NCBI GenBank assembly: GCA_965221695.1
Contig: OZ244905.1
Coordinates: 1,056,001 to 1,120,000, forward strand
DNA: 64,000 nucleotides
Source of the DNA: Gammaproteobacteria bacterium
GTDB lineage: Bacteria > Pseudomonadota > Gammaproteobacteria > Eutrophobiales > Eutrophobiaceae
Reading direction: 5' to 3'
The notes beneath the pieces are model-generated. The model ran no database searches. It saw only the letters and a list, made by a program, of their open reading frames with translations, and was not told the origin of the DNA. The position numbers and the translations under genes were made by a program. This document shows positions 26,839-61,385 of the stretch, in pieces (position 1 is the stretch's first letter; each line of letters opens with the position of its first letter).

Positions 26839-26918
26839 AGTGGTCAATGTAATCAGGATGGGTGCAATATGCAAGTACAACTTTCATTTTGCACACACTG
26901 GGAGGTCAACACTGGTCT

Positions 26919-27415: not shown

Positions 27416-30400
27416 TTACCTGTAGCCCCACTCCAGGTTCAGCCAGAAGCTGTGCTCCGGTGATATGTTCCAGGATTCTTCGCGTACGCCTTCAAACCCA
27501 ACCCGCAGTACGCTGCCGCCCAGTAACACGTCGCTCATCTCCGTGCCCAGCATGAACCGGCGGGAACGTTCGCCCAAGCCCGTAGTGCGGCTGTATACGG
27601 TCCATAACCGGTCTCGGATGAACAGGCCATAGCCCACCTCCGTCTCCATGCCGAACCGGTACTCATCCGAAGTCGGACTGCGCTGGCCGCGTACCATGTC
27701 GTCAATATTACGCTCCCACAACTGCCGGGCGCCGCCCTCAATGCTGCCCAGACTGCGGACCGGACTGTAATGCGGCGTCAACCGCAGCATCCAGCCGGTG
27801 CCGTCCGCCTGGTACGCCTTCTCCAATAACCCGCTCACCTGCCACTCACGGTAATTCGAGTTCGCCAGCAACCCGGCGCCGCGCAACTGTAACGCCCAGC
27901 CCGTGTCCGTCGCATAGCGCACACCACCGGCCAGGTCCAATCCGGCGCCGCTTTGCGCATCACCGCCGTCAATACGCACGCCCAACTCGGCAAACTGCTC
28001 AAACTGCCCCGCCTCCGTCGCCGACATATGCCTGCCCTCCAATACTGCCCGTACACGCTGCACATCGATATCCGGCGCATCCTCGACCGACATTGCCGCA
28101 TACATCGCCTCGCCCTGGTAACCCAACTGCCAACCGCCACGCCGGAAGAAACGACCCGTCACGCCCAATGCCGCCGAGTACATATCCACATCAGACTCCT
28201 GCCGGTACCCCTCATCGTCCACCGTCAGGTCCAACTCGCCCAAACCATACCCCAAAGCGCCCCAGATACTCAGGTCCGGCGAGACCATCCAGTCCGCATA
28301 CGGATACAGACTCGTCAGACTGATGTCGTAATCCCCCGTGAAGGTGCGCCGGGCATCACTGCGGTCGGTATAGTCAAACCGGCCCTCGGTGCGGGACAGG
28401 GCCGCGCCCAGCAGCAACTGCTCGGTTGCCTCAATATCTGCGCCCAAGTGGAAATTCGCCACGCCGCCGTCCCAAGTCACCGCATTATTGCCCTTGCTGC
28501 GCAGGTCGGTGTAACTGCCCTCGCCCCACAATGTGACCACTTTACCCGGCTCGCCGGATTCGCTGCCGTCGTCAGCCCCGAAATTCAGCGGCAGCACAAA
28601 CGACGCCCGGTTCAGCAACTGGCGCAGGTCAAACCGCCGCCGGTATTCCCATCCGCCCGGCGTGTCGAAGACATCAAAGACATCCGGTGTTGGCTGTGTC
28701 CGTCCGCCGGTCCGGGACCCGCCCAGGGTCGGATCCACCCGGCTCTCCGTGCCCGGCAATGCCTGTGTGCTGTGCCCGAATGTCTGTGTTATGCCAGACA
28801 GCGCCAGTCGTTCTTCATCATCTGATAATGGCTGCCCGGTACCGCCCGCAGACGGGTCAACACGACTCGTTGTGCCAGACAATAGTGACCCGGACTCGAT
28901 CCCGATCTGCGTCTCTGCCCCGGCGCCAACGTCAGGTGATGCTTGCTCTTCCTCAGGCAACGCCTCAATACCCAGCAGCGGTAACCCGGACTCTGCTCCA
29001 TACGCAGTAGGCTGACCTGGTTGCGTGCTTGGCGACGGCTTCACAGAACGGCCCAATATCGTGCTTGTTTGACCTGCCCCGGAACGCACCGAGCTGATCC
29101 GATCACTGAGCGCCTGCGTGGTGCGTCCGATTACCGACAGGGTCAAATGCGGCAACAGGTCTTCATGTACATCCGTCACCTGTACGGCATCAATCGGCGC
29201 CTCGCTCACCGTTACCGCAAACGTATCACTCACGGCTTCGCCTGTCTCATCTGCGGCCGTGACCGTAACGTTTGCGGCGCCCACCGACACACCGGTCAGG
29301 GTCAGGTCGCTGCCTGACAGGGTAACCGTTACGATCGTCTCATCATCCGACACCGCCGTATACGTCAGCGTATCGCCGTCCGCATCGGTGAAGGCAGCGC
29401 TGACATCAACCTGTTGGACCTGGTCTACGTCAATCCCCTGGTCAGACAGCGGCATGTCTACGGCCGGCGCCCGGTTCGGCATCACGACCGTGACGGCAAA
29501 CCGGTCGCTCGCCGTGCCGCCGCGTCCGTCATCGGCCGTTATTGTGATGGCGGTATCACCGGCGGATGCGCCGGTCAGGGTCAGGGTAGCGCCGGTTATC
29601 GCTACCGTGACGACGGAGGTATCAGCAGACACCGCCGTATACGTCAGCGCATCACCGTCTGCATCGGTAAAGGTAGCGCTGACATCAACCTGCTGCGTCT
29701 GGTCTACGTCAAGCGTTTGGTCAGACAACGGCGTCGCCACTTCCGGCGCCTCATTAGACAACGCCACCGTCACCGTGAACAGGTCGCTCGCCCTGCCGCG
29801 TCCGTCATCCGCGGTCACCGTGATGGTCGCCGCACCGACGGCTACGCCGGTTAAAGTCAGGGCGCTGCCGGTTACTGCCAAGGTGACCACCGTCTCGTCG
29901 GCAGACACTGCTGTATACGTCAGCGCATCGCCGTCCGCATCACTGAACGCGCCGCTCACATCAACCTGCTGCGTCTGGCCTACTACCAGTGTCAGGTCAG
30001 ACAACGGCGTTGCCACCACCGGCGCCTCATTCGGCGGCGCCACCGTTACCTTGAAGGTGTCGCTCGCCGTGCCGCCGCGCCCGTCAGAGGCCGTTATCGT
30101 CACATTCGTCTCGCCCAGCGCCACGCCGGTCAAGGTCAGACGCTCTGCCGAATCCACATCCACCGCCACGATCGATGAGGCATCGGTCGTCGCCGTGTAG
30201 ATCAGCACATCGCCGTCGCTGTCGTTAAACAAGCCCATGATATCCAACGTCCGGTTCTCATCCACCAACAATATCTGATCACCGGCCGACATCAGCAGAA
30301 CCGGCGCATTGTTTGGCGGCGGTGGCGGCGGCGGCGGCGGTGTTGTCTCGTCCACATCTCTCACCGTCACCGTGATGTTGCCGCTGGTCGCCGTGTTGCC

Positions 30401-33400
30401 GTTTGAATCCCGCGCCGTGAGCGTGTACACGTAGGTATTGTTCGTGTCGCTGTCGGTCGGGTTCTCATAGTCCCGCGCGCTCAGGTTCACTGTCACGCCC
30501 GTGCTGCTCTGGCTCGACAACGTGAAGTCGTCCGTCCCGTCTGCTCCGCCGAGTGTCCAGCTCACCGCGCCCTGCGCGTTCGCCAGGCTTGCCGTGACGG
30601 TGTACGGCGTGTTCTCGTTCACAGTGGCGTTCGCCAGGCCGCTTAAGGTCAATGTCGAGGGAGTGGTGTCCGCATCAATCGTGATGCTGAACGTCAGCGT
30701 GGCCTCATCGCCATCGCTGTCGGTCGCCCTGTACGTGTAGGTGGTGGCGGCCTGCGTCCCCGTCGGCGTGCCGGTCAAGGTGCGGGCGCTGGCGTCAAAC
30801 GTCAGACCGTCCGGCGCATCCGGCGCCAGCGTGTACGTCAGCGTGCCGTCGCCGCCGCTCGCCTGCGGCAGGTCAAGCCGGGTAATCGCCGAGTTCTGCA
30901 TGTAGGTCTGGTTGGCAATGGTGGCGCTGCCGAAGCTCGGCGCATTGTCCGCAGTAATCGTGATGGTGAACGTCAGCTCGGCCGGGTCGCCATCGCTGTC
31001 GGTCGCCCTGTACGTGTAGGTGGTGGCGGCCTGCGTCCCCGTCGGCGTGCCGGTCAAGGTGCGGGCGCTGGCGTCAAACGTCAGACCGTCCGGCGCATCC
31101 GGCGCCAGCGTGTACGTCAGCGTGCCGTCGCCGCCGCTCGCCTGCGGCAGGTCAAGCCGGGTAATCGCCGAGTTCTGCATGTAGGTCTGGTTGGCAATGG
31201 TGGCGCTGCCGAAGCTCGGCGCATTGTCCGCAGTAATCGTGATGGTGAACGTCAGCTCGGCCGGGTCGCCATCGCTGTCGGTCGCCCTGTACGTGTAGGT
31301 GGTGGCGGCCTGCGTCCCCGTCGGCGTGCCGGTCAAGGTGCGGGCGCTGGCGTCAAACGTCAGACCGTCCGGCGCATCCGGCGCCAGCGTGTACGTCAGC
31401 GTGCCGTCGCCGCCGCTCGCCTGCGGCAGGTCAAGCCGGGTAATCGCCGAGTTCTGCATGTAGGTCTGGTTGGCAATGGTGGCGCTGCCGAAGCTCGGCG
31501 CATTGTCCGCAGTAATCGTGATGGTGAACGTCAGCTCGGCCGGGTCGCCATCGCTGTCGGTCGCCCTGTACGTGTAGGTGGTGGCGGCCTGCGTCCCCGT
31601 CGGCGTGCCGGTCAAGGTGCGGGCGCTGGCGTCAAACGTCAGACCGTCCGGCGCATCCGGCGCCAGCGTGTACGTCAGCGTGCCGTCGCCGCCGCTCGCC
31701 TGCGGCAGGTCAAGCCGGGTAATCGCCGAGTTCTGCATGTAGGTCTGGTTGGCAATGGTGGCGCTGCCGAAGCTCGGCGCATTGTCCGCAGTAATCGTGA
31801 TGGTGAACGTCAGCTCGGCCGGGTCGCCATCGCTGTCGGTCGCCCTGTACGTGTAGGTGGTGGCGGCCTGCGTCCCCGTCGGCGTGCCGGTCAAGGTGCG
31901 GGCGCTGGCGTCAAACGTCAGACCGTCCGGCGCATCCGGCGCCAGCGTGTACGTCAGCGTGCCGTCGCCGCCGCTCGCCTGCGGCAGGTCAAGCCGGGTA
32001 ATCGCCGAGTTCTGCATGTAGGTCTGGTTGGCAATGGTGGCGCTGCCGAAGCTCGGCGCATTGTCCGCAGTAATCGTGATGGTGAACGTCAGCTCGGCCG
32101 GGTCGCCATCGCTGTCGGTCGCCCTGTACGTGTAGGTGGTGGCGGCCTGCGTCCCCGTCGGCGTGCCGGTCAAGGTGCGGGCGCTGGCGTCAAACGTCAG
32201 ACCGTCCGGCGCATCCGGCGCCAGCGTGTACGTCAGCGTGCCGTCGCCGCCGCTCGCCTGCGGCAGGTCAAGCCGGGTAATCGCCGAGTTCTGCATGTAG
32301 GTCTGGTTGGCAATGGTGGCGCTGCCGAAGCTCGGCGCATTGTCCGCAGTAATCGTGATGGTGAACGTCAGCTCGGCCGGGTCGCCATCGCTGTCGGTCG
32401 CCCTGTACGTGTAGGTGGTGGCGGCCTGCGTCCCCGTCGGCGTGCCGGTCAAGGTGCGGGCGCTGGCGTCAAACGTCAGACCGTCCGGCGCATCCGGCGC
32501 CAGCGTGTACGTCAGCGTGCCGTCGCCGCCGCTCGCCTGCGGCAGGTCAAGCCGGGTAATCGCCGAGTTCTGCATGTAGGTCTGGTTGGCAATGGTGGCG
32601 CTGCCGAAGCTCGGCGCATTGTCCGCAGTAATCGTGATGGTGAACGTCAGCTCGGCCGGGTCGCCATCGCTGTCGGTCGCCCTGTACGTGTAGGTGGTGG
32701 CGGCCTGCGTCCCCGTCGGCGTGCCGGTCAAGGTGCGGGCGCTGGCGTCAAACGTCAGACCGTCCGGCGCATCCGGCGCCAGCGTGTACGTCAGCGTGCC
32801 GTCGCCGCCGCTCGCCTGCGGCAGGTCAAGCCGGGTAATCGCCGAGTTCTGCATGTAGGTCTGGTTGGCAATGGTGGCGCTGCCGAAGCTCGGCGCATTG
32901 TCCGCAGTAATCGTGATGGTGAACGTCAGCTCGGCCGGGTCGCCATCGCTGTCGGTCGCCCTGTACGTGTAGGTGGTGGCGGCCTGCGTCCCCGTCGGCG
33001 TGCCGGTCAAGGTGCGGGCGCTGGCGTCAAACGTCAGACCGTCCGGCGCATCCGGCGCCAGCGTGTACGTCAGCGTGCCGTCGCCGCCGCTCGCCTGCGG
33101 CAGGTCAAGCCGGGTAATCGCCGAGTTCTGCATGTAGGTCTGGTTGGCAATGGTGGCGCTGCCGAAGCTCGGCGCATTGTCCGCAGTAATCGTGATGGTG
33201 AACGTCAGCTCGGCCGGGTCGCCATCGCTGTCGGTCGCCCTGTACGTGTAGGTGGTGGCGGCCTGCGTCCCCGTCGGCGTGCCGGTCAAGGTGCGGGCGC
33301 TGGCGTCAAACGTCAGACCGTCCGGCGCATCCGGCGCCAGCGTGTACGTCAGCGTGCCGTCGCCGCCGCTCGCCTGCGGCAGGTCAAGCCGGGTAATCGC

Positions 33401-36400
33401 CGAGTTCTGCATGTAGGTCTGGTTGGCAATGGTGGCGCTGCCGAAGCTCGGCGCATTGTCCGCAGTAATCGTGATGGTGAACGTCAGCTCGGCCGGGTCG
33501 CCATCGCTGTCGGTCGCCCTGTACGTGTAGGTGGTGGCGGCCTGCGTCCCCGTCGGCGTGCCGGTCAAGGTGCGGGCGCTGGCGTCAAACGTCAGACCGT
33601 CCGGCGCATCCGGCGCCAGCGTGTACGTCAGCGTGCCGTCGCCGCCGCTCGCCTGCGGCAGGTCAAGCCGGGTAATCGCCGAGTTCTGCATGTAGGTCTG
33701 GTTGGCAATGGTGGCGCTGCCGAAGCTCGGCGCATTGTCCGCAGTAATCGTGATGGTGAACGTCAGCTCGGCCGGGTCGCCATCGCTGTCGGTCGCCCTG
33801 TACGTGTAGGTGGTGGCGGCCTGCGTCCCCGTCGGCGTGCCGGTCAAGGTGCGGGCGCTGGCGTCAAACGTCAGACCGTCCGGCGCATCCGGCGCCAGCG
33901 TGTACGTCAGCGTGCCGTCGCCGCCGCTCGCCTGCGGCAGGTCAAGCCGGGTAATCGCCGAGTTCTGCATGTAGGTCTGGTTGGCAATGGTGGCGCTGCC
34001 GAAGCTCGGCGCATTGTCCGCAGTAATCGTGATGGTGAACGTCAGCTCGGCCGGGTCGCCATCGCTGTCGGTCGCCCTGTACGTGTAGGTGGTGGCGGCC
34101 TGCGTCCCCGTCGGCGTGCCGGTCAAGGTGCGGGCGCTGGCGTCAAACGTCAGACCGTCCGGCGCATCCGGCGCCAGCGTGTACGTCAGCGTGCCGTCGC
34201 CGCCGCTCGCCTGCGGCAGGTCAAGCCGGGTAATCGCCGAGTTCTGCATGTAGGTCTGGTTGGCAATGGTGGCGCTGCCGAAGCTCGGCGCATTGTCCGC
34301 AGTAATCGTGATGGTGAACGTCAGCTCGGCCGGGTCGCCATCGCTGTCGGTCGCCCTGTACGTGTAGGTGGTGGCGGCCTGCGTCCCCGTCGGCGTGCCG
34401 GTCAAGGTGCGGGCGCTGGCGTCAAACGTCAGACCGTCCGGCGCATCCGGCGCCAGCGTGTACGTCAGCGTGCCGTCGCCGCCGCTCGCCTGCGGCAGGT
34501 CAAGCCGGGTAATCGCCGAGTTCTGCATGTAGGTCTGGTTGGCAATGGTGGCGCTGCCGAAGCTCGGCGCATTGTCCGCAGTAATCGTGATGGTGAACGT
34601 CAGCTCGGCCGGGTCGCCATCGCTGTCGGTCGCCCTGTACGTGTAGGTGGTGGCGGCCTGCGTCCCCGTCGGCGTGCCGGTCAAGGTGCGGGCGCTGGCG
34701 TCAAACGTCAGACCGTCCGGCGCATCCGGCGCCAGCGTGTACGTCAGCGTGCCGTCGCCGCCGCTCGCCTGCGGCAGGTCAAGCCGGGTAATCGCCGAGT
34801 TCTGCATGTAGGTCTGGTTGGCAATGGTGGCGCTGCCGAAGCTCGGCGCATTGTCCGCAGTAATCGTGATGGTGAACGTCAGCTCGGCCGGGTCGCCATC
34901 GCTGTCGGTCGCCCTGTACGTGTAGGTGGTGGCGGCCTGCGTCCCCGTCGGCGTGCCGGTCAAGGTGCGGGCGCTGGCGTCAAACGTCAGACCGTCCGGC
35001 GCATCCGGCGCCAGCGTGTACGTCAGCGTGCCGTCGCCGCCGCTCGCCTGCGGCAGGTCAAGCCGGGTAATCGCCGAGTTCTGCATGTAGGTCTGGTTGG
35101 CAATGGTGGCGCTGCCGAAGCTCGGCGCATTGTCCGCAGTAATCGTGATGGTGAACGTCAGCTCGGCCGGGTCGCCATCGCTGTCGGTCGCCCTGTACGT
35201 GTAGGTGGTGGCGGCCTGCGTCCCCGTCGGCGTGCCGGTCAAGGTGCGGGCGCTGGCGTCAAACGTCAGACCGTCCGGCGCATCCGGCGCCAGCGTGTAC
35301 GTCAGCGTGCCGTCGCCGCCGCTCGCCTGCGGCAGGTCAAGCCGGGTAATCGCCGAGTTCTGCATGTAGGTCTGGTTGGCAATGGTGGCGCTGCCGAAGC
35401 TCGGCGCATTGTCCGCAGTAATCGTGATGGTGAACGTCAGCTCGGCCGGGTCGCCATCGCTGTCGGTCGCCCTGTACGTGTAGGTGGTGGCGGCCTGCGT
35501 CCCCGTCGGCGTGCCGGTCAAGGTGCGGGCGCTGGCGTCAAACGTCAGACCGTCCGGCGCATCCGGCGCCAGCGTGTACGTCAGCGTGCCGTCGCCGCCG
35601 CTCGCCTGCGGCAGGTCAAGCCGGGTAATCGCCGAGTTCTGCATGTAGGTCTGGTTGGCAATGGTGGCGCTGCCGAAGCTCGGCGCATTGTCCGCAGTAA
35701 TCGTGATGGTGAACGTCAGCTCGGCCGGGTCGCCATCGCTGTCGGTCGCCCTGTACGTGTAGGTGGTGGCGGCCTGCGTCCCCGTCGGCGTGCCGGTCAA
35801 GGTGCGGGCGCTGGCGTCAAACGTCAGACCGTCCGGCGCATCCGGCGCCAGCGTGTACGTCAGCGTGCCGTCGCCGCCGCTCGCCTGCGGCAGGTCAAGC
35901 CGGGTAATCGCCGAGTTCTGCATGTAGGTCTGGTTGGCAATGGTGGCGCTGCCGAAGCTCGGCGCATTGTCCGCAGTAATCGTGATGGTGAACGTCAGCT
36001 CGGCCGGGTCGCCATCGCTGTCGGTCGCCCTGTACGTGTAGGTGGTGGCGGCCTGCGTCCCCGTCGGCGTGCCGGTCAAGGTGCGGGCGCTGGCGTCAAA
36101 CGTCAGACCGTCCGGCGCATCCGGCGCCAGCGTGTACGTCAGCGTGCCGTCGCCGCCGCTCGCCTGCGGCAGGTCAAGCCGGGTAATCGCCGAGTTCTGC
36201 ATGTAGGTCTGGTTGGCAATGGTGGCGCTGCCGAAGCTCGGCGCATTGTCCGCAGTAATCGTGATGGTGAACGTCAGCTCGGCCGGGTCGCCATCGCTGT
36301 CGGTCGCCCTGTACGTGTAGGTGGTGGCGGCCTGCGTCCCCGTCGGCGTGCCGGTCAAGGTGCGGGCGCTGGCGTCAAACGTCAGACCGTCCGGCGCATC

Positions 36401-39400
36401 CGGCGCCAGCGTGTACGTCAGCGTGCCGTCGCCGCCGCTCGCCTGCGGCAGGTCAAGCCGGGTAATCGCCGAGTTCTGCATGTAGGTCTGGTTGGCAATG
36501 GTGGCGCTGCCGAAGCTCGGCGCATTGTCCGCAGTAATCGTGATGGTGAACGTCAGCTCGGCCGGGTCGCCATCGCTGTCGGTCGCCCTGTACGTGTAGG
36601 TGGTGGCGGCCTGCGTCCCCGTCGGCGTGCCGGTCAAGGTGCGGGCGCTGGCGTCAAACGTCAGACCGTCCGGCGCATCCGGCGCCAGCGTGTACGTCAG
36701 CGTGCCGTCGCCGCCGCTCGCCTGCGGCAGGTCAAGCCGGGTAATCGCCGAGTTCTGCATGTAGGTCTGGTTGGCAATGGTGGCGCTGCCGAAGCTCGGC
36801 AGCTTATTCGATGTGACCGCGACCGTGGCCGTGAGGCCGGCGTAGTTGCCGGCGGCGGCGGTTAAGGTGAGGGTAGCATTGCCGTTAGATGATGGGCTGG
36901 CCGCCATATTCACCGTGACCGTCTGTGCGGTGTTGTAGTTCGTGGCGCTGAACGTCAGCGGCGTCGGGTTGACCGTGACATCGGTGTTGTTGCTGGTCAC
37001 GGTGACGGTGACCGCGGTGGTCGGGGCCGCGGCCAGGGTCACGTCAAAGGTGTTGCTACCGCCCTCGTCCACCTCCAGAGTGTCCGGTGTGACTTGAATG
37101 GCCGGGTCCGGTCTGGGTGTGGCGGCGACCGTCGCCGCCGTACTGCTGCCGGCGGTGTTGGTGGCGCGCACCGCAAACGTGTAGCCGGTGCCGTTGGTCA
37201 GGCCTGTCGCCGTATAGGTGGTGGCGGTGGGGGCCAGGTCCGTCCAGGTGTCGGTACCGCTAAACGGTAGGTCGGCGGTGGCCTTATAGCGGACTTGTAT
37301 GTTGGTCAGCGTGCTGGCGTTGGTCGGGTTGGTCCAGGTCAGGGTGGCCTGGGTGTCGCCCGCTGTGGCAGTCAGGTTCGTCGGCGCGTTGGGGACGGCC
37401 AAAGCCGGCGTGGCGGTGGCGGTGTTGGAGGCATCGCTGTTGCCGCCATTATTCACCGCGCGAATCTCGAACGCGTATTGGGTGGTGTTGGTCAGGCCCG
37501 TGACCTTATGGCTCGTGGTCGTGGCGCCGCTGCCGGTAATGTCCTCCCAGGTGGCGGTGGCGGGCACGGTGGACCCGGCGCCGTAGCGCACCTGGTACTT
37601 GGTGATGCTGGAATCGTTCGGGTTGGCCCAACTCAGGGTGGCTTCGGTGTCACCGGCGGTGGCAGACAGGTTAGTCGGCGCGGCGGGCACCGGCGGCGGT
37701 GTTGCCTTGAAAATAATCTTCTGATTGCCAATGGCGTGCTCAATGTGGAAGTCGTTGTCGCCCACGGTGTTGAGCACGGTGCCAGTGAACGTCACTTCGT
37801 CACCTGTCGGGTCGTAGATGTCCCCGGTGAGATTGGCTTTGTCTACGAACAGTAACTTTCTGTAAGTGTTGAACCGGAGACTGAATTCGTAGTTGTAGTT
37901 GCTCAGGTTGATAATTTCTTGGTTACCCGAGTACGAATTCAAACCAGTAGTTACGATATTTGGGAGCGAGTTATAACGGCTTATCGGTGTGGTATTGTCA
38001 GATGGCGTTGCAAAAATCTGCCATTTCTCAAATTCCTGATTAAATAGGACATATCCCACAGACGTCACTAGCGTCGGCACCGTATCTCCCGCAGGACTGA
38101 AACCCGAAACATCCAAACTACCCGAGGCGGCAATAGTCACAGTGCTGCCATCATCGGAGAACGTGAACGTCAGCGTGCGTGCCGGAGTCGGGGGCTGCAT
38201 CACCGTGATGTCGAACTTCAGCTCGGCCGTATCCCCGTCCGCATCGGTGGCGGTGTAGGTGTATTCGGTGGCCGCCTGCGGCGCGGTCGGCGTGCCGGTT
38301 AAGGTGCGGGCGGTCGCATTGAAGGTCAGACCCGCCGGCGGGGTCGGTGTTAACGTGTACGCCAGTGTGCCGTCACCGCCGGTCGCTTGCGGCAGGTTCA
38401 GCGTGGTAATCGCCGTACCCTGCGGGTAGGTCTGGTCGGCAATGGTCTGCGTGCCGAAGCTCGGCAGCGCATTCGCGGTGACCGCGACCGTGGCCGTGAG
38501 GCCGGCGTAGTTGCCGCCGGTAGCGGCTAAGGTGAGGGTGGCGTTGCCGTTAGGTAACGGATTGGCCGCCATGGTCACCGTGACCGTCTGTGCGGTGTTG
38601 TAGTTGGTGGCGCTGAACGTCAGCGACGTCGGGTTGACCGTCACATTGGTGTTGTTGCTGGCCACGGTGATGGCGACCGCGGCGGTCGGGGCCGCGACCA
38701 GGGTCACATCAAAGGTGTTGCTGCCGCCCTCATCGACCACCAGGGTGTCCGGTGCGACGGTAATGGCCGGGTCCGGCCTGGGGGTGGCGGTGACCGTGTC
38801 CGAGTCCGGGCCGTTGGCGGTACCGACCACGGCGCGTATCTGGAACGCATAGGTCGTGCCGTTGGTCAGGTTGTCAACAGTGTGGGTCGTGGTCGCGGCC
38901 GTGCTGTTGGCAATGTCGTTCCAGGCGGTGGTGGCCGGTATGGTGGCGCCCTGGGCCTGGCGCACCTGGTACTTGGTGATGGTACTGTCATTCGGGTTGG
39001 TCCAGGTCAGCGTGACCTCGGTGTCGCCGGGCGCCGCGGTCAGGTTGGCCGGTTTGGCCGGGGCCTCGTCCACATTGGTAATGGTGATGGCCACGTTCAC
39101 CGTGTCGCTGTTGCCGTCATCGTCCGTCGCCGTTAACGTGTACACATAAATGTTATTGGTGTCGTTGTCCGTCGGGACCTCAAAGTCCTTGGCGCCCAGG
39201 GTTACGGTGGCGCCGGTGTTGCTCTGGTTCGACAGGGTAAAGCCGTTGGCGTTGGCGTCGTCGCCGGTCAACGCCCAGGTGATGTTGCCCACCGGCGTGC
39301 CGGTCAAGGTCGCATTGCCGGTGTAGGCCGTATTCTCGGCCAAGTTGGCATCGGCCACACCGCCGAGGGTTAGCGTGGGCGTAATACGGATGTCGAACGT

Positions 39401-42400
39401 CAGCGTGGCCGTATCCCCGTCCGCATCGGTGGCGGTGTAGGTGTATTCGGTGGCCGCCTGCGGCGCGGTCGGCGTGCCGGTTAAGGTGCGGGCGGTCGCA
39501 TTGAAGGTCAGACCCGCCGGCGGGGTCGGCGTTAATGTGTACGCCAGTGTGCCGTCACCGCCGGTCGCTTGCGGCAGGTTCAGCGTGGTAATCGCCGTAC
39601 CCTGCGGGTAGGTCTGGTCGGCAATGGTGGCGCTGCCGAAGCTCGGCAGCGCATTCGCGGTGACCGCGACCGTGGCCGTGAGGCCGGCGTAGTTGCCGCC
39701 GGTAGCGGCTAAGGTGAGGGTGGCGGTGCCGTTAGGTGACGGGTTGGCCGCCATGGTCACCGTGACCGTCTGTGCGGTGTTGTAGTTGGTGGCGCTGAAC
39801 GTCAGCGACGTCGGGTTGACCGTCACATTGGTGTTGTTGCTGGCCACGGTGATGGCGACCGCGGCGGTCGGGGCCGCGACCAGGGTCACATCAAAGGTGT
39901 TGCTGCCGCCCTCATCGACCACCAGGGTGTCCGGTGCGACGGTAATGGCCGGGTCCGGTCTGGGGGTGGCGGTGACCGTGTCCGAGTCCGGGCCGTTGGC
40001 GGTACCGACCACGGCGCGTATCTGGAACGCATAGGTGGTGCCGTTGGTCAGGTTGTCAACAGTGTGGGTCGTGGTCGCGGCCGTGCTGTTGGCAATGTCG
40101 GCCCAGGCGGTGGTGGCCGGTATGGTGGCGCCCTGGGCCTGGCGCACCTGGTACTTGGTGATGGTACTGTCATTCGGGTTGGTCCAGGTCAGCGTGACCT
40201 CGGTGTCGCCGGGCGCCGCGGTCAGGTTGGCCGGTTTGGCCGGGGCCTCGTCCACATTGGTAATGGTGATGGCCACGTTCACCGTGTCGCTGTTGCCGTC
40301 ATCGTCCGTCGCCGTTAACGTGTACACATAAATGTTATTGGTGTCGTTGTCCGTCGGGACCTCAAAGTCCTTGGCCCCCAGGGTTACGGTGGCGCCGGTG
40401 TTGCTCTGGTTCGACAGGGTAAAGCCGCTCGCATTGGCGTCGTCGCCGGTCAACGCCCAGGTGATGTTGCCCACCGGCGTGCCGGTCAAGGTCGCATTGC
40501 CGGTGTAGGCCGTATTCTCGGCTTGGTTGGCATCGGCCACACCGCCGAGGGTTAGCGTGGGCGTAATACGGATGTCGAACGTCAGCGTGGCCGTATCCCC
40601 GTCCGCATCGGTGGCGGTGTAGGTGTATTCGGTGGCCGCCTGCGGCGCGGTCGGCGTGCCGGTTAAGGTGCGGGCGGTCGCATTGAAGGTCAGACCCGCC
40701 GGCGGGGTCGGCGTTAATGTGTACGCCAGTGTGCCGTCACCGCCGGTCGCTTGCGGCAGGTTCAGCGTGGTAATCGCCGTACCCTGCGGGTAGGTCTGGT
40801 CGGCAATGGTGGCGCTGCCGAAGCTCGGCAGCGCATTCGCGGTGACCGCGACCGTGGCCGTGAGGCCGGCGTAGTTGCCGCCGGTAGCGGCTAAGGTGAG
40901 GGTGGCGGTGCCGTTAGGTAACGGATTGGCCGCCATGGTCACCGTGACCGTCTGTGCGGTGTTGTAGTTGGTGGCGCTGAACGTCAGCGACGTCGGGTTG
41001 ACCGTCACATTGGTGTTGTTGCTGGCCACGGTGATGGCGACCGCGGCGGTCGGGGCCGCGACCAGGGTCACATCAAAGGTGTTGCTGCCGCCCTCATCGA
41101 CCACCAGGGTGTCCGGTGCGACGGTAATGGCCGGGTCCGGCCTGGGGGTGGCGGTGACCGTGTCCGAGTCCGGGCCGTTGGCGGTACCGACCACGGCGCG
41201 TATCTGGAACGCATAGGTCGTGCCGTTGGTCAGGTTGTCAACAGTGTGGGTCGTGGTCGCGGCCGTGCTGTTGGCAATGTCGTTCCAGGCGGTGGTGGCC
41301 GGTATGGTGGCGCCCTGGGCCTGGCGCACCTGGTACTTGGTGATGGTACTGTCATTCGGGTTGGTCCAGGTCAGCGTGACCTCGGTGTCGCCGGGCGCCG
41401 CGGTCAGGTTGGCCGGTTTGGCCGGGGCCTCGTCCACATTGGTAATGGTGATGGCCACGTTCACCGTGTCGCTGTTGCCGTCATCGTCCGTCGCCGTTAA
41501 CGTGTACACATAAATGTTATTGGTGTCGTTGTCCGTCGGGACCTCAAAGTCCTTGGCGCCCAGGGTTACGGTGGCGCCGGTGTTGCTCTGGTTCGACAGG
41601 GTAAAGCCGCTCGCATTGGCGTCGTCGCCGGTCAACGCCCAGGTGATGTTGCCCACCGGCGTGCCGGTCAAGGTCGCATTGCCGGTGTAGGCCGTATTCT
41701 CGGCTTGGTTGGCATCGGCCACACCGCCGAGGGTTAGCGTGGGCGTAATACGGATGTCGAACGTCAGCGTGGCCGTATCCCCGTCCGCATCGGTGGCGGT
41801 GTAGGTGTATTCGGTGGCCGCCTGCGGCGCGGTCGGCGTGCCGGTTAAGGTGCGGGCGGTCGCATTGAAGGTCAGACCCGCCGGCGGGGTCGGCGTTAAT
41901 GTGTACGCCAGTGTGCCGTCACCGCCGGTCGCTTGCGGCAGGTTCAGCGTGGTAATCGCCGTACCCTGCGGGTAGGTCTGGTCGGCAATGGTCTGGGCGC
42001 CGAAGCTCGGCAGCGCATTCGCGGTGACCGCGACCGTGGCCGTGAGGCCGGCGTAGTTGCCGCCGGTAGCGGCTAAGGTGAGGGTGGCGTTGCCGTTAGG
42101 TAACGGATTGGCCGCCATGGTCACCGTGACCGTCTGTGCGGTGTTGTAGTTGGTGGCGCTGAACGTCAGCGACGTCGGGTTGACCGTCACATTGGTGTTG
42201 TTGCTGGCCACGGTGATGGCGACCGCGGCGGTCGGGGCCGCGACCAGGGTCACATCAAAGGTGTTGCTGCCGCCCTCATCGACCACCAGGGTGTCCGGTG
42301 CGACGGTAATGGCCGGGTCCGGCCTGGGGGTGGCGGTGACCGTGTCCGAGTCCGGGCCGTTGGCGGTACCGACCACGGCGCGTATCTGGAACGCATAGGT

Positions 42401-45400
42401 CGTGCCGTTGGTCAGGTTGTCAACAGTGTGGGTCGTGGTCGCGGCCGTGCTGTTGGCAATGTCGTTCCAGGCGGTGGTGGCCGGTATGGTGGCGCCCTGG
42501 GCCTGGCGCACCTGGTACTTGGTGATGGTACTGTCATTCGGGTTGGTCCAGGTCAGCGTGACCTCGGTGTCGCCGGGCGCCGCGGTCAGGTTGGCCGGTT
42601 TGGCCGGGGCCTCGTCCACATTGGTAATGGTGATGGCCACGTTCACCGTGTCGCTGTTGCCGTCATCGTCCGTCGCCGTTAACGTGTACACATAAATGTT
42701 ATTGGTGTCGTTGTCCGTCGGGACCTCAAAGTCCTTGGCGCCCAGGGTTACGGTGGCGCCGGTGTTGCTCTGGTTCGACAGGGTAAAGCCGCTCGCATTG
42801 GCGTCGTCGCCGGTCAACGCCCAGGTGATGTTGCCCACCGGCGTGCCGGTCAAGGTCGCATTGCCGGTGTAGGCCGTATTCTCGGCTTGGTTGGCATCGG
42901 CCACACCGCCGAGGGTTAGCGTGGGCGTAATACGGATGTCGAACGTCAGCGTGGCCGTATCCCCGTCCGCATCGGTGGCGGTGTAGGTGTATTCGGTGGC
43001 CGCCTGCGGCGCGGTCGGCGTGCCGGTTAAGGTGCGGGCGGTCGCATTGAAGGTCAGACCCGCCGGCGGGGTCGGCGTTAATGTGTACGCCAGTGTGCCG
43101 TCACCGCCGGTCGCTTGCGGCAGGTTCAGCGTGGTAATCGCCGTACCCTGCGGGTAGGTCTGGTCGGCAATGGTCTGCGTGCCGAAGCTCGGCAGCGCAT
43201 TCGCGGTGACCGCGACCGTGGCCGTGAGGCCGGCGTAGTTGCCGCCGGTAGCGGCTAAGGTGAGGGTGGCGTTGCCGTTAGGTAACGGATTGGCCGCCAT
43301 GGTCACCGTGACCGTCTGTGCGGTGTTGTAGTTGGTGGCGCTGAACGTCAGCGACGTCGGGTTGACCGTCACATTGGTGTTGTTGCTGGCCACGGTGATG
43401 GCGACCGCGGCGGTCGGGGCCGCGACCAGGGTCACATCAAAGGTGTTGCTGCCGCCCTCATCGACCACCAGGGTGTCCGGTGCGACGGTAATGGCCGGGT
43501 CCGGCCTGGGGGTGGCGGTGACCGTGTCCGAGTCCGGGCCGTTGGCGGTACCGACCACGGCGCGTATCTGGAACGCATAGGTCGTGCCGTTGGTCAGGTT
43601 GTCAACAGTGTGGGTCGTGGTCGCGGCCGTGCTGTTGGCAATGTCGTTCCAGGCGGTGGTGGCCGGTATGGTGGCGCCCTGGGCCTGGCGCACCTGGTAC
43701 TTGGTGATGGTACTGTCATTCGGGTTGGTCCAGGTCAGCGTGACCTCGGTGTCGCCGGGCGCCGCGGTCAGGTTGGCCGGTTTGGCCGGGGCCTCGTCCA
43801 CATTGGTAATGGTGATGGCCACGTTCACCGTGTCGCTGTTGCCGTCATCGTCCGTCGCCGTTAACGTGTACACATAAATGTTATTGGTGTCGTTGTCCGT
43901 CGGGACCTCAAAGTCCTTGGCCCCCAGGGTTACGGTGGCGCCGGTGTTGCTCTGGTTCGACAGGGTAAAGCCGCTGGCGTTGGCGTCGTCGCCGGTCAAC
44001 GCCCAGGTGATGTTGCCCACCGGCGTGCCGGTCAAGGTCGCATTGCCGGTGTAGGCCGTATTCTCGGCTTGGTTGGCATCGGCCACACCGCCGAGGGTTA
44101 GCGTGGGCGTAATACGGATGTCGAACGTCAGCGTGGCCGTATCCCCGTCCGCATCGGTGGCGGTGTAGGTGTATTCGGTGGCCGCCTGCGGCGCGGTCGG
44201 CGTGCCGGTTAAGGTGCGGGCGGTCGCATTGAAGGTCAGACCCGCCGGCGGGGTCGGTGTTAACGTGTACGCCAGTGTGCCGTCACCGCCGGTCGCTTGC
44301 GGCAGGTTCAGCGTGGTAATCGCCGTACCCTGCGGGTAGGTCTGGTCGGCAATGGTCTGGGCGCCGAAGCTCGGCAGCGCATTCGCGGTGACCGCGACCG
44401 TGGCCGTGAGGCCGGCGTAGTTGCCGCCGGTAGCGGCTAAGGTGAGGGTGGCGTTGCCGTTAGGTAACGGATTGGCCGCCATGGTCACCGTGACCGTCTG
44501 TGCGGTGTTGTAGTTGGTGGCGCTGAACGTCAGCGACGTCGGGTTGACCGTCACATTGGTGTTGTTGCTGGCCACGGTGATGGCGACCGCGGCGGTCGGG
44601 GCCGCGACCAGGGTCACATCAAAGGTGTTGCTGCCGCCCTCATCGACCACCAGGGTGTCCGGTGCGACGGTAATGGCCGGGTCCGGCCTGGGGGTGGCCG
44701 TCACCGTGGCCGACGCATCACTGTTGCCGGTCGCATTGACTGCGCGAATCTCGAATGCGTATTGGGTGCCGTTGGTCAGGTTGTCAACGGTGTGGGTCGT
44801 GGTCGTGGCGCCGCTGCCGGTGATGTCCTCCCAGGTGGCGGTGGCGGGCACGGTTGGCCCGGCGCCGTAGCGCACCTGGTACTTGGTGATGGCGTTATTG
44901 CTCGGGTCGGTCCAGTTCAGCGTGACCTGCGTGTCGCCGGCTGTTGCGGTCAGACCCGTGGGCGCAGCCGGCGGCGCATCGTCGTCGGTCAGCGTCAAGG
45001 TCAGTGAGGCCGGTCCGGTGACCCCCCGGGGGTTGGCCGCGGTCGCCGAGACCGTCAGGTCCTTGTCTGCGGTGTCTTCGGTGTTGTCCACACCGGTCAC
45101 CGTGACCGTGCCGGTACTCGTGGTGTCGCCCTGGGCAATCATCAGCGTCGGGGGGCTGCTCAGCGTGAAGTCGCCCGGCACGGCCGTCGAGCCGGTTGCC
45201 GGGGCCACCGCCACCGTCAGCGTGGTCGCGCCGGTCGACGGATAGTCAAGGCTTGCCGTCACCGTGGCCTGGCCACCGTTCTCGGAAATGGCCGTGGCCG
45301 AGAGCGCCAGTGTGACCGTCGGCTGCGTCGGGGTCGCAGTGACCGTGGCGGCGGCGCCGTCGCCGCTGGCGTTCACTGCGCGCAGCTCAAATGCGTATTG

Positions 45401-48400
45401 GGTGCCGTTGGTCAGGTTGTCAACAGTGTGGCTGATGGTCGTGGCCGTGCTGCCGGCGATGTCGGTCCAGGCCGTATTGGCCGGCACTGAGGTACCTGCG
45501 GCATGGCGTACCTGGTATTTGCTGATGCTGGTGTTGCTCGGATCAGTCCAGGTCAACAGCGCCGCCCGGTCGCGGGCCGCGGCGGTCAGGCCCGTGGGCG
45601 CAGCCGGCTTGGCCAGCGGGGTGGCCGTCACCGTGTCTGAGGTGGCGCCGTCGCCCTGGGCGCTTACCGCGCGTACCTGGAACGCATAGGTCGTGCCGTT
45701 GGTCAGGTTGTCAACAGTGTGGCTCGTGGTCGCGGCGCCGCTGCCGGTGATGTCGTTCCAGGTCGCGGTCGTCGGATCGGCGGTGCCCTGCGCATAGCGC
45801 ACCTGGTACTTGGTGATGCTGGAGTCAGACGGGTTGCCCCAACTCAGCGCCACCTCGCCGTCGCCCGGCGTTGCCTGGAGGTTTGCCGGCTGGGCGGGCG
45901 CAAGGTTGCCGGTGACGGTGACGGTGAAGGTCTCGGTCACAGCGGCGGCAAGGGAAGAATCGGCGGTGACAGTCACCGTCGTCACGCCGGTCCCCACCGC
46001 GGTCACACGCACATTGAACGTTGCGAAGACGGGGCCGCGAACGCCATTCACCCGGTTGATAATCTCCGCCGTGGCCACCGACGGGTTGGCGCTGGTCGCC
46101 GTGAGACTCAATCCGGAGAACGAGCTGGCGGTGGCCGCACTGGCGACTGCCGGCAACGGCGGGTTGATGTACTCCGTGCTGCCGCCATTGACAGAGATTG
46201 TGACGTCATTGAACGAAGACATATGCCCCGACCCGTTCGCATCAATGACGGTGATGTTGAAGTTGTCTTCCGCCCACTCGCCGCTCGGGTCTGTCGCCCT
46301 GAGCGTAATCTCCACGGTGCCCACCGATACCGCCTGGGCTTCCACACTGGCTACCCCGTCGGGCACCACGTTGTTCGTCGTGGCGGTCGCCACGCTCGTG
46401 TCGGCGCTCGTGGCTGTGTACGTCAGCGCATCACCGTCGGCATCGGAGAATATCTCCTCGCCCGCATCTTCCAAGCGCCGGGCAAACACATCATCGCCAA
46501 ATGGACTGTTCAGCCACGCGCCGCTATCCGGTATCGGCCGTACCACCACGGGCGCCCGGTTGCCCTGCGCCACGGTGATGTTGAACGTCAGACTCGCCGC
46601 ATCGCCCTGGGCGTCGGTCGCCGTCCAGGTATAAAGGGTTTGTGCCAGGGCAACCGTGGGCGTGCCGCTGACGGTGCGCGTGGTCGTGTCGAGGCTCACG
46701 CCAGTGGGCAGCGCCGGGGTGAGCGCATAGCTCAGCGTGCCGTTGCCGCCGGTCGCTTGCGGCAGCGTGACGCTGGTAATCGCGACCAACCGGGTCCAGG
46801 ACTGGTCGGCAATGGTGGCCGCGCCGAAGGTGGGGGCGTTCACGGTCGGGGTGGCCGCCACAGTGGCCGCCGTGCCGTCACCGGCGGTGTTGGTGGCGCG
46901 CACCGCAAACGTGTAATCGGTGCCGTTGGTCAGGCTTGTCGCCGTGTAGGTGGTGGCGGTGGCGGCCAGGTTGGTCCAGGTATCGGTATTGACAAACGGC
47001 AGGTCGGCGGTGGCCTTGTAGCGGACTTGCAGGTTGTCAAGCGTGCTGGCGTTGGTCGGGTTGGTCCAGTTCAGGATAACCTGCGTGTCACCGGCGGTGG
47101 CCGTCAGGTTCGTCGGTGCGTCGGGGACGGCCAGGGTCGGGGTGGCCGTGACCGTGTCCGAGTCCGGGCCGTTGACGGCGCCGACCACTGCGCGTATCTG
47201 GAACGCATAGGTCGTGCCGTTGGTCAGGTTGTCAACAGTGTGGGTCGTGGTCGTCGCGCCGCTGTTGGCAATGTCCGTCCAGGTCGCAGTCGTCGGGTCG
47301 GCGGTGCCCTGGGCATAGCGAACCTGGTACTTGGTAATGGTACTGTCGTTCGGGTTGGTCCAGTTCAGCATGACCTCGGTGTCACCGGCCGCGGCAGTCA
47401 GGTTGGTCGGCTTGGCCGGGGCCTCGTCCACATCGGTGACCGTCACCGTGTAGACGGCTGAGGTCACCGTGTTGGTGTTCGCATCCGTCGCCGTTAACGT
47501 GTACTCGTAAGTGTTGCCGGTGTCACTGTCGGTCGGGGTCTCAAAGTCCCGCGCCGCTAAGCTCACCCGCGCCCCGGTCTGACTCTGGTCCGCCGCCGGC
47601 AGCGTAAACGCGCCCGCATCCGCCCCGCCCAGCGTCCAGGTGACCGCGCCCAGGGCGCCGGTCAAGGACGCATCCACCGTGTAAGCCTGGTTCTCGCTCA
47701 CGCTGGCATCGGCCAGGCCCGTCAGCGTCAGCGTGGCGGGCTCATCGATATTGGTAATGGTGATGGCCACGTTCACGGTGGCAATGTTGCTGTCATCGTC
47801 CGTCGCCGTTAACGTGTACACATAAATGTTATTGGTGTCGTTGTCCGTCGGGACCTCAAAGTCCTTGGCCCCCAGGGTTACGGTGGCGCCGGTGTTGCTC
47901 TGGTTCGACAGCGTAAACCCGTTCGCATTGGCGTCGTCACCGGTCAACGCCCAGGTGATGTTGCCCACCGGCGTGCCGCTTAAAGTTGCCGTGCCGGTGT
48001 AGGCCGTATTCTCGGCTAAGTTGGCATCGGCCACACCGCCGAGGGTTAGCGTGGGCGTAATACGGATGTCGAACGTCAGCGTGGCCGTATCCCCGTCCGC
48101 ATCGGTGGCGGTGTAGGTGTACTCGGTGGCCGCCTGCGGCGCGGTCGGGGTGCCGGTTAAGGTGCGGGCGGTCGCATCAAACGTCAGACCCGCCGGCAGG
48201 GTCGGCGTTAAGGTGTACGCCAGTGTGCCGTCACCGCCGGTCGCTTGCGGCAGGTTCAGCGTGGTAATCGCCGTACCCTGCGGGTAGGTCTGGTCGGCAA
48301 TGGTCTGCGTGCCGAAGTCCGGCTGGCTGTCTGCGGTAATCGTGATGTCGAACTTCAGCTCGGCCTCATCGCCATCGTTGTCGACCACCTTGTACGTGTA

Positions 48401-61286: not shown

Positions 61287-61306
61287 TTAATTGCGCACTA
61301 TATACC

Positions 61307-61385
61307 ATTCCCATGTATACGGGAATCCAGTGGGATAATGGGTCGCCCTGCAGGCGACACAATATTTTACTGGACTCACGCTTTT
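61307..61385. repeat. Most complete REP/dRS3-like element (family 1)
   Basis: ATTCCC-atgtatac-GGGAAT-ccagt...GTCGCC-ctgca-GGCGAC-acaatatttt-actggactcacgc. Confidence 0.72.

What the first reader, a model, noticed from the sequence alone, without database searches (positions are those of the whole stretch)
37580..38180. Variable cassette copied between paralogs and joined to a different cassette's flank
Seen: 37716-38176 in gene A reads identical to 15123-15583 in gene B (~460 bp, offset 22593), although the other cassettes are highly divergent. The adjoining flank in gene A (37585-37730) matches the flank of another gene B cassette (13450-13585) rather than the flank at 15000-15120. The switch falls within the conserved atcttctgattgcca (GNQKI) end motif. 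Inference: recent gene conversion or cassette exchange using the conserved domain end as the crossover site.
Basis: partly seen in the sequence, partly recalled or inferred. Interest (0 to 1): 0.75.

Follow-up and report, generated by a model that had tools for sequence, protein, structure and literature searches.

The report
Cassette conversion between giant adhesin paralogs
Two neighbouring giant surface-protein genes keep one ~155-residue domain of unknown function letter-for-letter identical by copying it between them again and again, a familiar recombination process seen here unusually cleanly.

Summary
Window 37716-38176 (gene A, 27416-50710, minus strand) is identical over 461/461 bases to 15123-15583 (gene B). 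This is the longest exact A-B match; the next is 236 bp. The other cassette pairs are 64-90% identical. The flank 37586-37715 matches the flank of cassette B5 (13442-13571) at 123/130, against about 76% for the B3 flank. The switch lies in ATCTTCTGATTGCCA at 37716-37730.

The cause is gene conversion, but not a single recent event. One sister-species genome (G008) has the same A cassette/B5-like flank arrangement, and its A and B3 cassettes are also identical (480 bp). At 16 sites both copies of one genome differ from both copies of the other, and derived states occur in both lineages. Each lineage therefore converted after the split. The first 72 flank bases evolve in concert with B5 in the same way: 6 sites sort by genome, 0 by locus.

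The cassette is a confidently modelled all-beta domain (pLDDT 90) with no Pfam, NCBIfam or PDB relative. It is rare, with 41 hits among 1.84 billion representative proteins. This scan has met the same domain before on other DNA.

The mechanism is ordinary. A programmed switch, a DGR and misassembly are unlikely. Interest is moderate.

The parts
27416..50710 (-). Gene A. A 7764-aa giant repeat protein with FN3, He_PIG, Big_9, Big_2 and cadherin-like domains. It holds one cassette and has a C-terminal region with only a weak beta-barrel hint.
   Evidence: ORF; translation. Pfam hits. OMP_b-brl scores only E 0.024, 15.2 bits, below the 28.7-bit cut-off.
2..22867 (-). Gene B, the part inside the window. 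The full gene is 13,912 aa and runs past the window start to genome position 1037129. It has 8 cassettes, 7 of them in the window.
37709..38179 (-). Cassette A1. A 157-aa domain of no described family, from RTLTFTFSDDG... to ...GNQKIIF.
   Evidence: No Pfam hit and no NCBIfam hit. AlphaFold model with pLDDT 90.3.
15116..15586 (-). Cassette B3, the conversion partner of A1.
   Evidence: 468/471 identical to A1.
37716..38176 (-). The identical tract in gene A, equal to 15123-15583 in gene B (461 bp).
15123..15583 (-). The identical tract in gene B.
37716..37730 (-). The conserved end motif ATCTTCTGATTGCCA (encoding GNQKI on the minus strand). The partner switches here from B3 to B5.
37586..37715 (-). 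The linker and start of the FN3 domain after A1. It is of B5 type. Its first 72 nt (37637-37708) evolve in concert with the B5 flank.
   Evidence: 123/130. (70/72 and 69/72 within genomes against 62/72 and 65/72 between orthologs; 6 sites sort by genome, 0 by locus).
13442..13571 (-). The flank after cassette B5, partner of the gene A flank.
13565..14023 (-). Cassette B5.
17573..18043 (-). Cassette B1.
16496..16954 (-). Cassette B2.
14342..14794 (-). Cassette B4. No match was found for it in the sister species G008.
5483..5938 (-). Cassette B6.
89..550 (-). Cassette B7. It is the partner of a second, older exchange, with cassette C2 of gene C (genome 2326847-2327308).

Best explanation
Genes A and B are paralogous giant fibre-like surface proteins. 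One ~155-residue domain cassette in A (A1) and the third cassette of B (B3) are kept identical by repeated non-reciprocal homologous recombination (gene conversion).

Inferred mechanism: an early event was anchored in the strongly conserved first ~27 and last ~40 codons of the domain. Once 460-480 bp were identical, that stretch itself became an efficient RecA substrate. Any new mutation in one copy is then either erased or copied to the other. Heteroduplex cannot extend into the unlike flanks, so the tract stops in the conserved ends.

The ~70 nt just downstream in A (the linker and first FN3 strand) is homogenised in the same way, but with the flank of cassette B5. The A locus is therefore a stable mosaic of two concerted-evolution tracts that meet in the GNQKI motif.

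Shown: the identity, its boundaries, the by-genome pattern in two species, and derived states in both lineages.

Inferred: dependence on RecA, the self-reinforcing dynamics, and the direction B to A in G008.
For: IDENTITY BEYOND CHANCE. 461/461 identical bases, the longest exact A-B match. A run of 242 concordant polymorphic sites, reached by 0/5000 permutations. Sharp breakpoints.

SISTER SPECIES. G008 is the only one of 40 relatives searched that has the domain. Its A' and B3' cassettes share an exact 480-bp tract whose 3' end lies 8 nt beyond the cassette, a different endpoint from G000.

BY-GENOME PATTERN. Between the genomes the cassette differs at 17-18 of 471 sites. At 16 of these, both copies of one genome differ from both copies of the other.

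POLARISATION. Nine outgroup cassettes were used. G000-derived states shared by A1 and B3 are at sites 403 (9/9 outgroups), 415 (8/9), 45 (8/9) and 287 (7/9). G008-derived states shared by A' and B3' are at sites 288 (9/9), 423 (8/9) and 444 (8/9). Conversion therefore followed the split in both lineages.

FLANK. In its first 72 nt, 6 sites sort by genome and 0 by locus.

STABLE PARALOGS. The other cassettes are old and stable: orthologous pairs are 96.3-99.8% identical (B1 98.9, B2 98.3, B5 96.3, B6 99.8, B7 99.8, C3 99.1), while paralogs are 60-90%. Surrounding orthologous sequence is 92.5-96.6% identical.

SECOND CASE. G000 cassette C2 is 95.5% identical to B7 but only 82.2% to its positional ortholog, whose flanks are 91-98% identical. 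The tract starts at the cassette's 5' end.

RECA. recA is present, E 8.8e-142.
Against: Only two genomes carry the loci, so 'recurrent' rests on one event per lineage plus the flank pattern.

Polarisation uses paralogs and distant homologs (65-72% nt identity) as outgroups. Patch conversion from other cassettes could mimic ancestral states. Eleven of the 18 between-species differences cluster in the last 70 nt and look like such patches.

Orthologous cassettes can be very conserved (B6 and B7 show 1 difference each). The bare absence of A1-B3 differences is therefore weaker evidence than the flank divergence suggests: P(0) is about 0.4 at d=0.002 and about 1e-10 at d=0.05.

No read-level confirmation was obtained. 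Short-read contigs break at the conserved ends.

Among the other genomes sampled, no within-genome cassette pair exceeds 94.7% (0 of 19 pairs), so such homogenisation is not general in this family.
Confidence: 0.85

Rival explanations
1. A programmed cassette-switching system for adhesive or antigenic variation. The conserved domain ends would be dedicated recombination handles, and the many divergent cassettes would form a library shuffled at high frequency.
For: The family has conserved ends and a variable middle: amino-acid identity is 83% and 69% in the ends against 36% in the core. There are 13 cassettes in four giant genes. Two inter-gene exchanges begin at the cassette's 5' end. Cassette types are shared across distant taxa.
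Against: All cassettes sit in frame in full-length genes, so there are no silent donor copies. Positional orthologs are 96-99.8% identical between species, so the repertoire is stable rather than shuffled. Among identical residues, identical codons are barely more frequent in the ends (63-65%) than in the core (57%), so there is no nucleotide-level handle. No population variants could be seen (all uninformative).
Confidence: 0.06
2. Foreign DNA replaced both A1 and B3. A cassette imported from another organism recombined into both loci, rather than one locus copying the other.
For: Homologous giant genes in MAG records titled as other classes or phyla are 80-92% identical in nucleotides to gene B. 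Cassettes in different genomes reach 99.1% nucleotide identity, so exchange between genomes looks real.
Against: The nearest foreign cassettes of the A1/B3 type are only 68.6-70.1% identical in nucleotides. This reading needs two identical imports per lineage in two lineages. Most of the tract (positions 46-286) is unchanged between the species.
Confidence: 0.05
3. An assembly or polishing artefact. Repeat collapse or consensus polishing made the two copies identical, or joined the cassette to the wrong flank.
For: The genes are extremely repetitive; for example, gene A holds 22 copies of a 279-bp unit at 99% identity. Gene A' of G008 is cut at a contig end. Short-read contigs cannot bridge the joint.
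Against: The genome is one 3.54-Mb contig with no N. The tract is only 461 bp. An independently assembled sister genome shows the same cassette-flank arrangement at both loci. Species-specific changes are shared by both copies in each assembly.
Confidence: 0.03
4. Diversity-generating retroelement or other mutagenic targeting of the cassette middle.
For: The domain has a variable middle between conserved ends.
Against: There is no RVT_1 match in the genome, which is 96.85% complete. The cassettes differ by indels and by all kinds of substitution. Orthologs are stable.
Confidence: 0.01

Closest known systems
Gene conversion among Helicobacter pylori bab paralogs (babA/babB/babC). Passages of PMC4552749 were read.
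   Same: Paralogous outer-surface adhesin genes at separate loci exchange internal segments by intragenomic homologous recombination. The result is chimeric genes whose flanks stay locus-specific.
   Different: Here the unit exchanged is one internal domain of a 7,764-aa and a 13,912-aa protein. The same pair is kept identical in two species. An adjacent 72-nt tract has a different partner. There is no link to phase-variable repeats.
Concerted evolution of duplicated bacterial genes and of tandem repeats in surface proteins (general knowledge, recalled; no paper read).
   Same: Paralogs are more alike within a genome than orthologs are between genomes.
   Different: Homogenisation is confined to a ~0.5-kb domain. 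It sits in genes whose other cassette copies remain 60-90% identical and evolve as stable positional orthologs.
Silent-cassette antigenic variation, such as Neisseria pilE/pilS and Borrelia vlsE (recalled, not tested against any paper).
   Same: Divergent cassettes flanked by conserved sequence; non-reciprocal copying.
   Different: There is no expression site with silent donors, because every cassette is part of an open giant gene. No evidence of high-frequency switching was found.
Fibrillar adhesins: stalk plus adhesive domain plus anchor. Monzon, Lafita and Bateman 2021, PMC8286594; abstract read.
   Same: Long chains of stalk-type domains (FN3, He_PIG, Big_9, cadherin-like) interrupted by a non-stalk domain that may be adhesive.
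   Different: The putative adhesive domain matches no described family. It occurs up to 8 times along one protein rather than once at a tip. The anchor is unconfirmed.
Earlier notes of this scan on other genomes (e1-3977176 and e1-2396351).
   Same: The same or a related ~155-165-residue all-beta module, with conserved ends and a variable middle, on giant surface proteins. Types are shared across phyla.
   Different: Those notes concern exchange between genomes. This report documents exchange within a genome, with a two-species test.

Membership tests
Gene conversion / concerted evolution between paralogs | An identity tract far longer than the background divergence allows, with sharp boundaries | tested here: met
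   461/461 identical; the next-longest exact match is 236 bp; 0/5000 permutations reached the observed run.
Gene conversion / concerted evolution between paralogs | Non-reciprocal: each locus keeps its own flanks | tested here: met
   The upstream flanks are unrelated and the downstream flanks are 76.7% identical.
Gene conversion / concerted evolution between paralogs | Paralogs within a genome are more alike than orthologs between genomes | tested here: met
   A1-B3 is 99.4% and 100% identical within genomes and 96.2-96.4% between them. 16 sites sort by genome. In the flank, 6 sites sort by genome and 0 by locus.
Gene conversion / concerted evolution between paralogs | Dependence on the homologous recombination machinery (RecA) | not testable with these tools
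   recA is present. Dependence would need genetics.
Silent-cassette antigenic variation (pilE/pilS, vlsE type) | One expression site plus promoterless or truncated silent donor cassettes | tested here: not met
   All 13 cassettes lie in frame in four long open genes.
Silent-cassette antigenic variation (pilE/pilS, vlsE type) | Frequent variants within a population | tested here: inconclusive
   Contigs of 4 runs do not bridge the joint. Two metagenome pattern scans found nothing.
Diversity-generating retroelement target | A reverse transcriptase and template repeat in the genome | tested here: not met
   No RVT_1 match in the genome; the control rang in 3 of 14 genomes.
Fibrillar adhesin | Repeated stalk domains | tested here: met
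   fn3, He_PIG, Big_9, Big_2, Cadherin_4 and Cadherin_5 score above the Pfam cut-offs.
Fibrillar adhesin | A recognised adhesive domain | tested here: inconclusive
   The cassette matches no Pfam or NCBIfam family and no PDB sequence or fold. An adhesive role is inferred only.
Type Va autotransporter | A C-terminal autotransporter beta-domain | tested here: inconclusive
   The Pfam scan of the last 700 aa at E<=1 lists only OMP_b-brl at E 0.024, 15.2 bits against a 28.7-bit cut-off. There is no NCBIfam hit and no PDB sequence hit for the last 450 aa.
Any described protein domain family (for the cassette) | A significant sequence or fold match | tested here: not met
   Pfam 0 hits for 5 cassettes. 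NCBIfam 0 hits. PDB profile search 0 hits. Foldseek: no hit at E<=1e-3 and TM<=0.22. VIA-align best Z 2.7. A weak or missing fold match does not prove that the fold is new.

The most novel reading that the evidence does not exclude
The ~155-residue module is an interchangeable binding head. Its conserved first and last strands would double as recombination joints that let whole heads be swapped in frame: between positions, between giant genes of one genome, and between bacteria of different phyla. On this reading the A locus is held as a mirror of B3 because presenting the same head on two different fibres is selected. The family would then be a modular, homologous-recombination-based specificity-exchange system without silent cassettes.
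Probability: 0.15. Interest if true: 0.75.

Novelty: new member of a known kind. Interest (0 to 1): 0.45.

Why it matters
This is a clean natural example of domain-sized concerted evolution. One internal module of two enormous genes is kept identical in each of two species, while the seven sister modules in the same gene evolve as stable, divergent positional orthologs. The adjacent 72 nt follows a different partner. The case shows how sequence identity alone can lock a pair of repeats into perpetual homogenisation. It also gives defined breakpoints for studying tract limits in a bacterium known only from assembled genomes.

The case marks the cassette as the functionally distinct part of these fibres. 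It is an undescribed all-beta domain, confidently modelled and rare, and it occurs in MAG records of many taxa. That makes it a reasonable target for expression, binding and structure work. The mechanism itself is not new.

Tried and rejected
READ-LEVEL CHECK. Six runs from 4 studies hold part of the stretch. Logan contigs of X1, X2, X3 and X5 were laid on 36900-38900. The cassette core 37778-38134/38182 is present without differences in X1 and X2, and 37833-38039 in X3. All contigs break at the conserved ends, and none bridges 37715/37716 with 31 nt on each side. This gives no verdict on the joint or on alternative combinations.

METAGENOME SCANS. Two scans for exact patterns, one A-specific flank 33-mer and one cassette-core 36-mer, found 0 stretches each.

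FIRST STRUCTURE MODEL. The model built from a 7-sequence alignment was unusable, pLDDT 39.5.

DGR. No reverse transcriptase was found.

NUCLEOTIDE-LEVEL HANDLES. Synonymous codon identity is 63-65% in the ends against 57% in the core, too small a difference to argue for selection on the DNA.

OTHER IDENTICAL PAIRS. Among 51 cassettes from the other genomes, 0 of 19 within-genome pairs exceed 94.7%. Only pattern-matched cassettes, at most 80 loci, were sampled.

NEARBY NOTES. A look-up of earlier scan notes near this place returned nothing.

FAILED CALLS. Script bugs and a frame slip were corrected.

Full report
WHAT IS THERE

The window holds two very large genes on the minus strand. Gene A runs from 27416 to 50710 (7764 aa). 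Gene B runs from 22867 down past the window start; in the whole genome it is 13,912 aa. The genome is a single 3.54-Mb contig with no N.

Both proteins are chains of fn3, He_PIG, Big_9, Big_2 and cadherin-like domains. Their C-terminal ~450 residues are alike and give only a weak beta-barrel hint: OMP_b-brl at E 0.024, below the cut-off, with no NCBIfam or PDB sequence match.

Between the stalk domains lies a 151-157-residue module. It has a strongly conserved start (RTLTFTFSDDG...SGSLD) and end (GDNDFHIEHAIGNQKIIF) and a variable middle. Gene A has one copy (A1, 37709-38179). Gene B has seven in the window (B1-B7) and an eighth beyond it. Two other giant genes elsewhere in the genome hold three and one. 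That makes 13 in all.

CHECKING THE OBSERVATION

Window 37716-38176 equals 15123-15583 at 461 of 461 bases. This is the longest exact match between A and B; the next is 236 bp. Other cassette pairs are 64-90% identical, and the collinear N-terminal parts of A and B are 94.75% identical. In a Sawyer-type test, A1 and B3 agree at 242 consecutive polymorphic sites of 427, a run reached by 0 of 5000 permutations.

The flank 37586-37715 is 123/130 identical to 13442-13571, behind cassette B5. That is the best match in the whole genome. The flank behind B3 is 76.7% identical.

In the A1/B3/B5 triplet, 144 consecutive informative sites follow B3. Then 33 of 38 follow B5, and then 21 of 22 follow B3 again. 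The switch falls in ATCTTCTGATTGCCA at 37716-37730.

THE DECISIVE COMPARISON

Of 40 related genomes searched, one (G008, same genus) carries the domain, with 12 matches. It has the same gene order: A', two ATPase genes, then B'. Neighbouring genes lie on another contig at 83-97% identity.

In G008 the A' and B3' cassettes are again identical, over an exact tract of 480 bp. That tract ends 8 nt beyond the cassette, not at the G000 endpoint.

Between the genomes the cassette differs at 17-18 of 471 sites. At 16 of these, both copies in one genome differ from both copies in the other. I polarised the sites with nine outgroup cassettes. Derived states shared by both G000 copies occur at sites 403, 415, 45 and 287. 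Derived states shared by both G008 copies occur at sites 288, 423 and 444. So at least one conversion followed the species split in each lineage.

The A-type flank is also present behind A' in G008, so the cassette/flank joint predates the split. In the first 72 nt of that flank, 6 variable sites sort by genome (A equals B5 within each genome) and none sorts by locus. Identity is 70/72 and 69/72 within genomes, against 62/72 and 65/72 between orthologs. Beyond nt 118 the pattern reverses: A-A' is 212/213 and A-B5 is 147/213.

The A locus is thus a mosaic of two neighbouring tracts. Each is kept in concert with a different partner in gene B, and they meet in the conserved motif.

HOW STABLE THE REST IS

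Positional orthologs of the other cassettes are 96.3-99.8% identical between the two species, while paralogs are 60-90%. The surrounding orthologous sequence is 92.5-96.6% identical. The cassettes are therefore old paralogs inherited in place, not a rapidly shuffled library.

There are exceptions:
- G000 cassette C2 (gene C, 1.27 Mb away) is 95.5% identical to B7 but only 82.2% to its positional ortholog, whose flanks are 91-98% identical. This is a second, older exchange that begins at the cassette's 5' end.
- No counterpart of B4 or B8 was found in G008. Its B3' cassette is followed by a B4-type flank and has a partly B4-like 3' end, and A' shares that end. This suggests a deletion between conserved cassette ends in gene B, followed by copying from B to A. 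That order of events is inferred, not shown.

MECHANISM

The best reading is ordinary homologous recombination. recA is present. The conserved ends offer stretches of shared sequence for a first event. After that, the 460-480 identical bases sustain frequent conversion, and the tract is limited by the unlike flanks.

I found no sign of a dedicated device:
- There is no reverse transcriptase.
- There are no silent donor cassettes.
- Among identical residues, identical codons are hardly more frequent in the ends (63-65%) than in the core (57%). The ends are therefore conserved as protein, not as DNA handles.

Misassembly is unlikely, because two independent assemblies agree on both loci. Read-level proof is still missing: contigs of four public runs break at the conserved ends, and two metagenome pattern scans found nothing.

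WHAT THE CASSETTE IS

With 59 homologs in the alignment, AlphaFold gives a confident all-beta model: pLDDT 90.3, pTM 0.87. The ends score 95-98 and residues 31-70 score 69-82.

It has no significant relative anywhere searched: Pfam, NCBIfam, PDB sequences, Foldseek (TM<=0.22) or VIA-align (best Z 2.7). A profile search of 1.84 billion representative proteins found 41 proteins at E<=0.001.

In the one-genome-per-species collection, 56 loci were found. They lie in MAG records titled Gammaproteobacteria, Alphaproteobacteria, Thermodesulfobacteriota, Nitrospirales, Longimicrobiales, Arenicellales, Paracoccaceae and several Candidatus groups.

Cassette types are shared across these records. Nucleotide identity between cassettes of different genomes reaches 99.1%. 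Gene B is 80-92% identical in nucleotides to some of them over 1-3.4 kb. Two earlier notes of this scan describe the same or a related module on other DNA. Their cross-phylum claim agrees with what I saw, but I did not test it further. An adhesive role for the module is an inference from its place in a fibrillar-adhesin-like architecture (abstract of PMC8286594).

COMPARISON WITH KNOWN SYSTEMS

The closest documented parallel is gene conversion among the bab adhesin paralogs of Helicobacter pylori, which yields chimeric genes by intragenomic recombination (passages of PMC4552749). Silent-cassette systems such as pilE/pilS resemble this case only superficially, and that comparison is recalled, not checked against a paper.

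Two literature searches returned no paper describing this module or giant genes of this kind (listings only). That is not proof that none exists.

VERDICT

It is a new member of a known kind, and interest is moderate.

Noticed in passing
window 2-22867 and beyond (genome 1037129-1078867): Gene B is a single open frame of 13,912 aa, about twice the length of gene A. Both share the same N-terminus and the same C-terminal ~450 aa.
   Followed up: partly
window 30667-36800; also 38207 to about 45300: Gene A holds 22 tandem copies of a 279-bp He_PIG unit at 99% identity. It also holds an array with a 1182-bp period whose copies are 97-99% identical. Homogenisation is pervasive in these genes.
   Followed up: partly
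loci L026-L079; window gene B: Homologous giant genes in MAG records titled as different classes and phyla are 80-92% identical in nucleotides to gene B over 1-3.4 kb. Single cassettes reach 99.1% between a record titled Gammaproteobacteria and one titled Nitrospirales. This suggests recent transfer between distant bacteria, or cross-assignment of contigs.
   Followed up: partly
window 27416-50710 and 2-22867 compared with the rest of the genome: Genes A and B have 65% G+C against 55.0% for the genome. The cassettes inside them have only 48-55%, between flanks of 64-73%. The composition is foreign to the genome, and the cassettes differ again from their host genes.
   Followed up: no
genome 2326847-2327308 (gene C cassette 2) and window 89-550 (B7): A second cassette exchange between genes. 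C2 is 95.5% identical to B7 but 82.2% to its positional ortholog in G008, while its flanks stay orthologous at 91-98%.
   Followed up: yes
window 14342-14794 (B4) and genome 1052444-1052914 (B8); G008:C6:37744-38991: No counterpart of cassettes B4 or B8 was found in the sister species. Its B3' cassette runs directly into a B4-type flank, as expected from a deletion (or, in G000, an insertion) by recombination between conserved cassette ends.
   Followed up: partly
window 37379-37591: This 213-nt FN3 segment of gene A is 212/213 identical between the two species. The surrounding kilobase is 92.5% identical. The segment is unusually conserved, or was recently exchanged.
   Followed up: no
window 23243-24451 and 25609-26880: Two AAA_14 / DUF4143 ATPase genes lie between the two giant genes. 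The interval is partly conserved in G008 at 96-99% identity.
   Followed up: no
window about 61300-61450: A stretch of ~85-125 nt here matches about 90 places in the sister genome at 73-90% identity. Some of those places are tandem arrays with a spacing of about 125 bp, for example G008:C4:40334-43011. It is a dispersed and tandem short repeat family of unknown nature.
   Followed up: no
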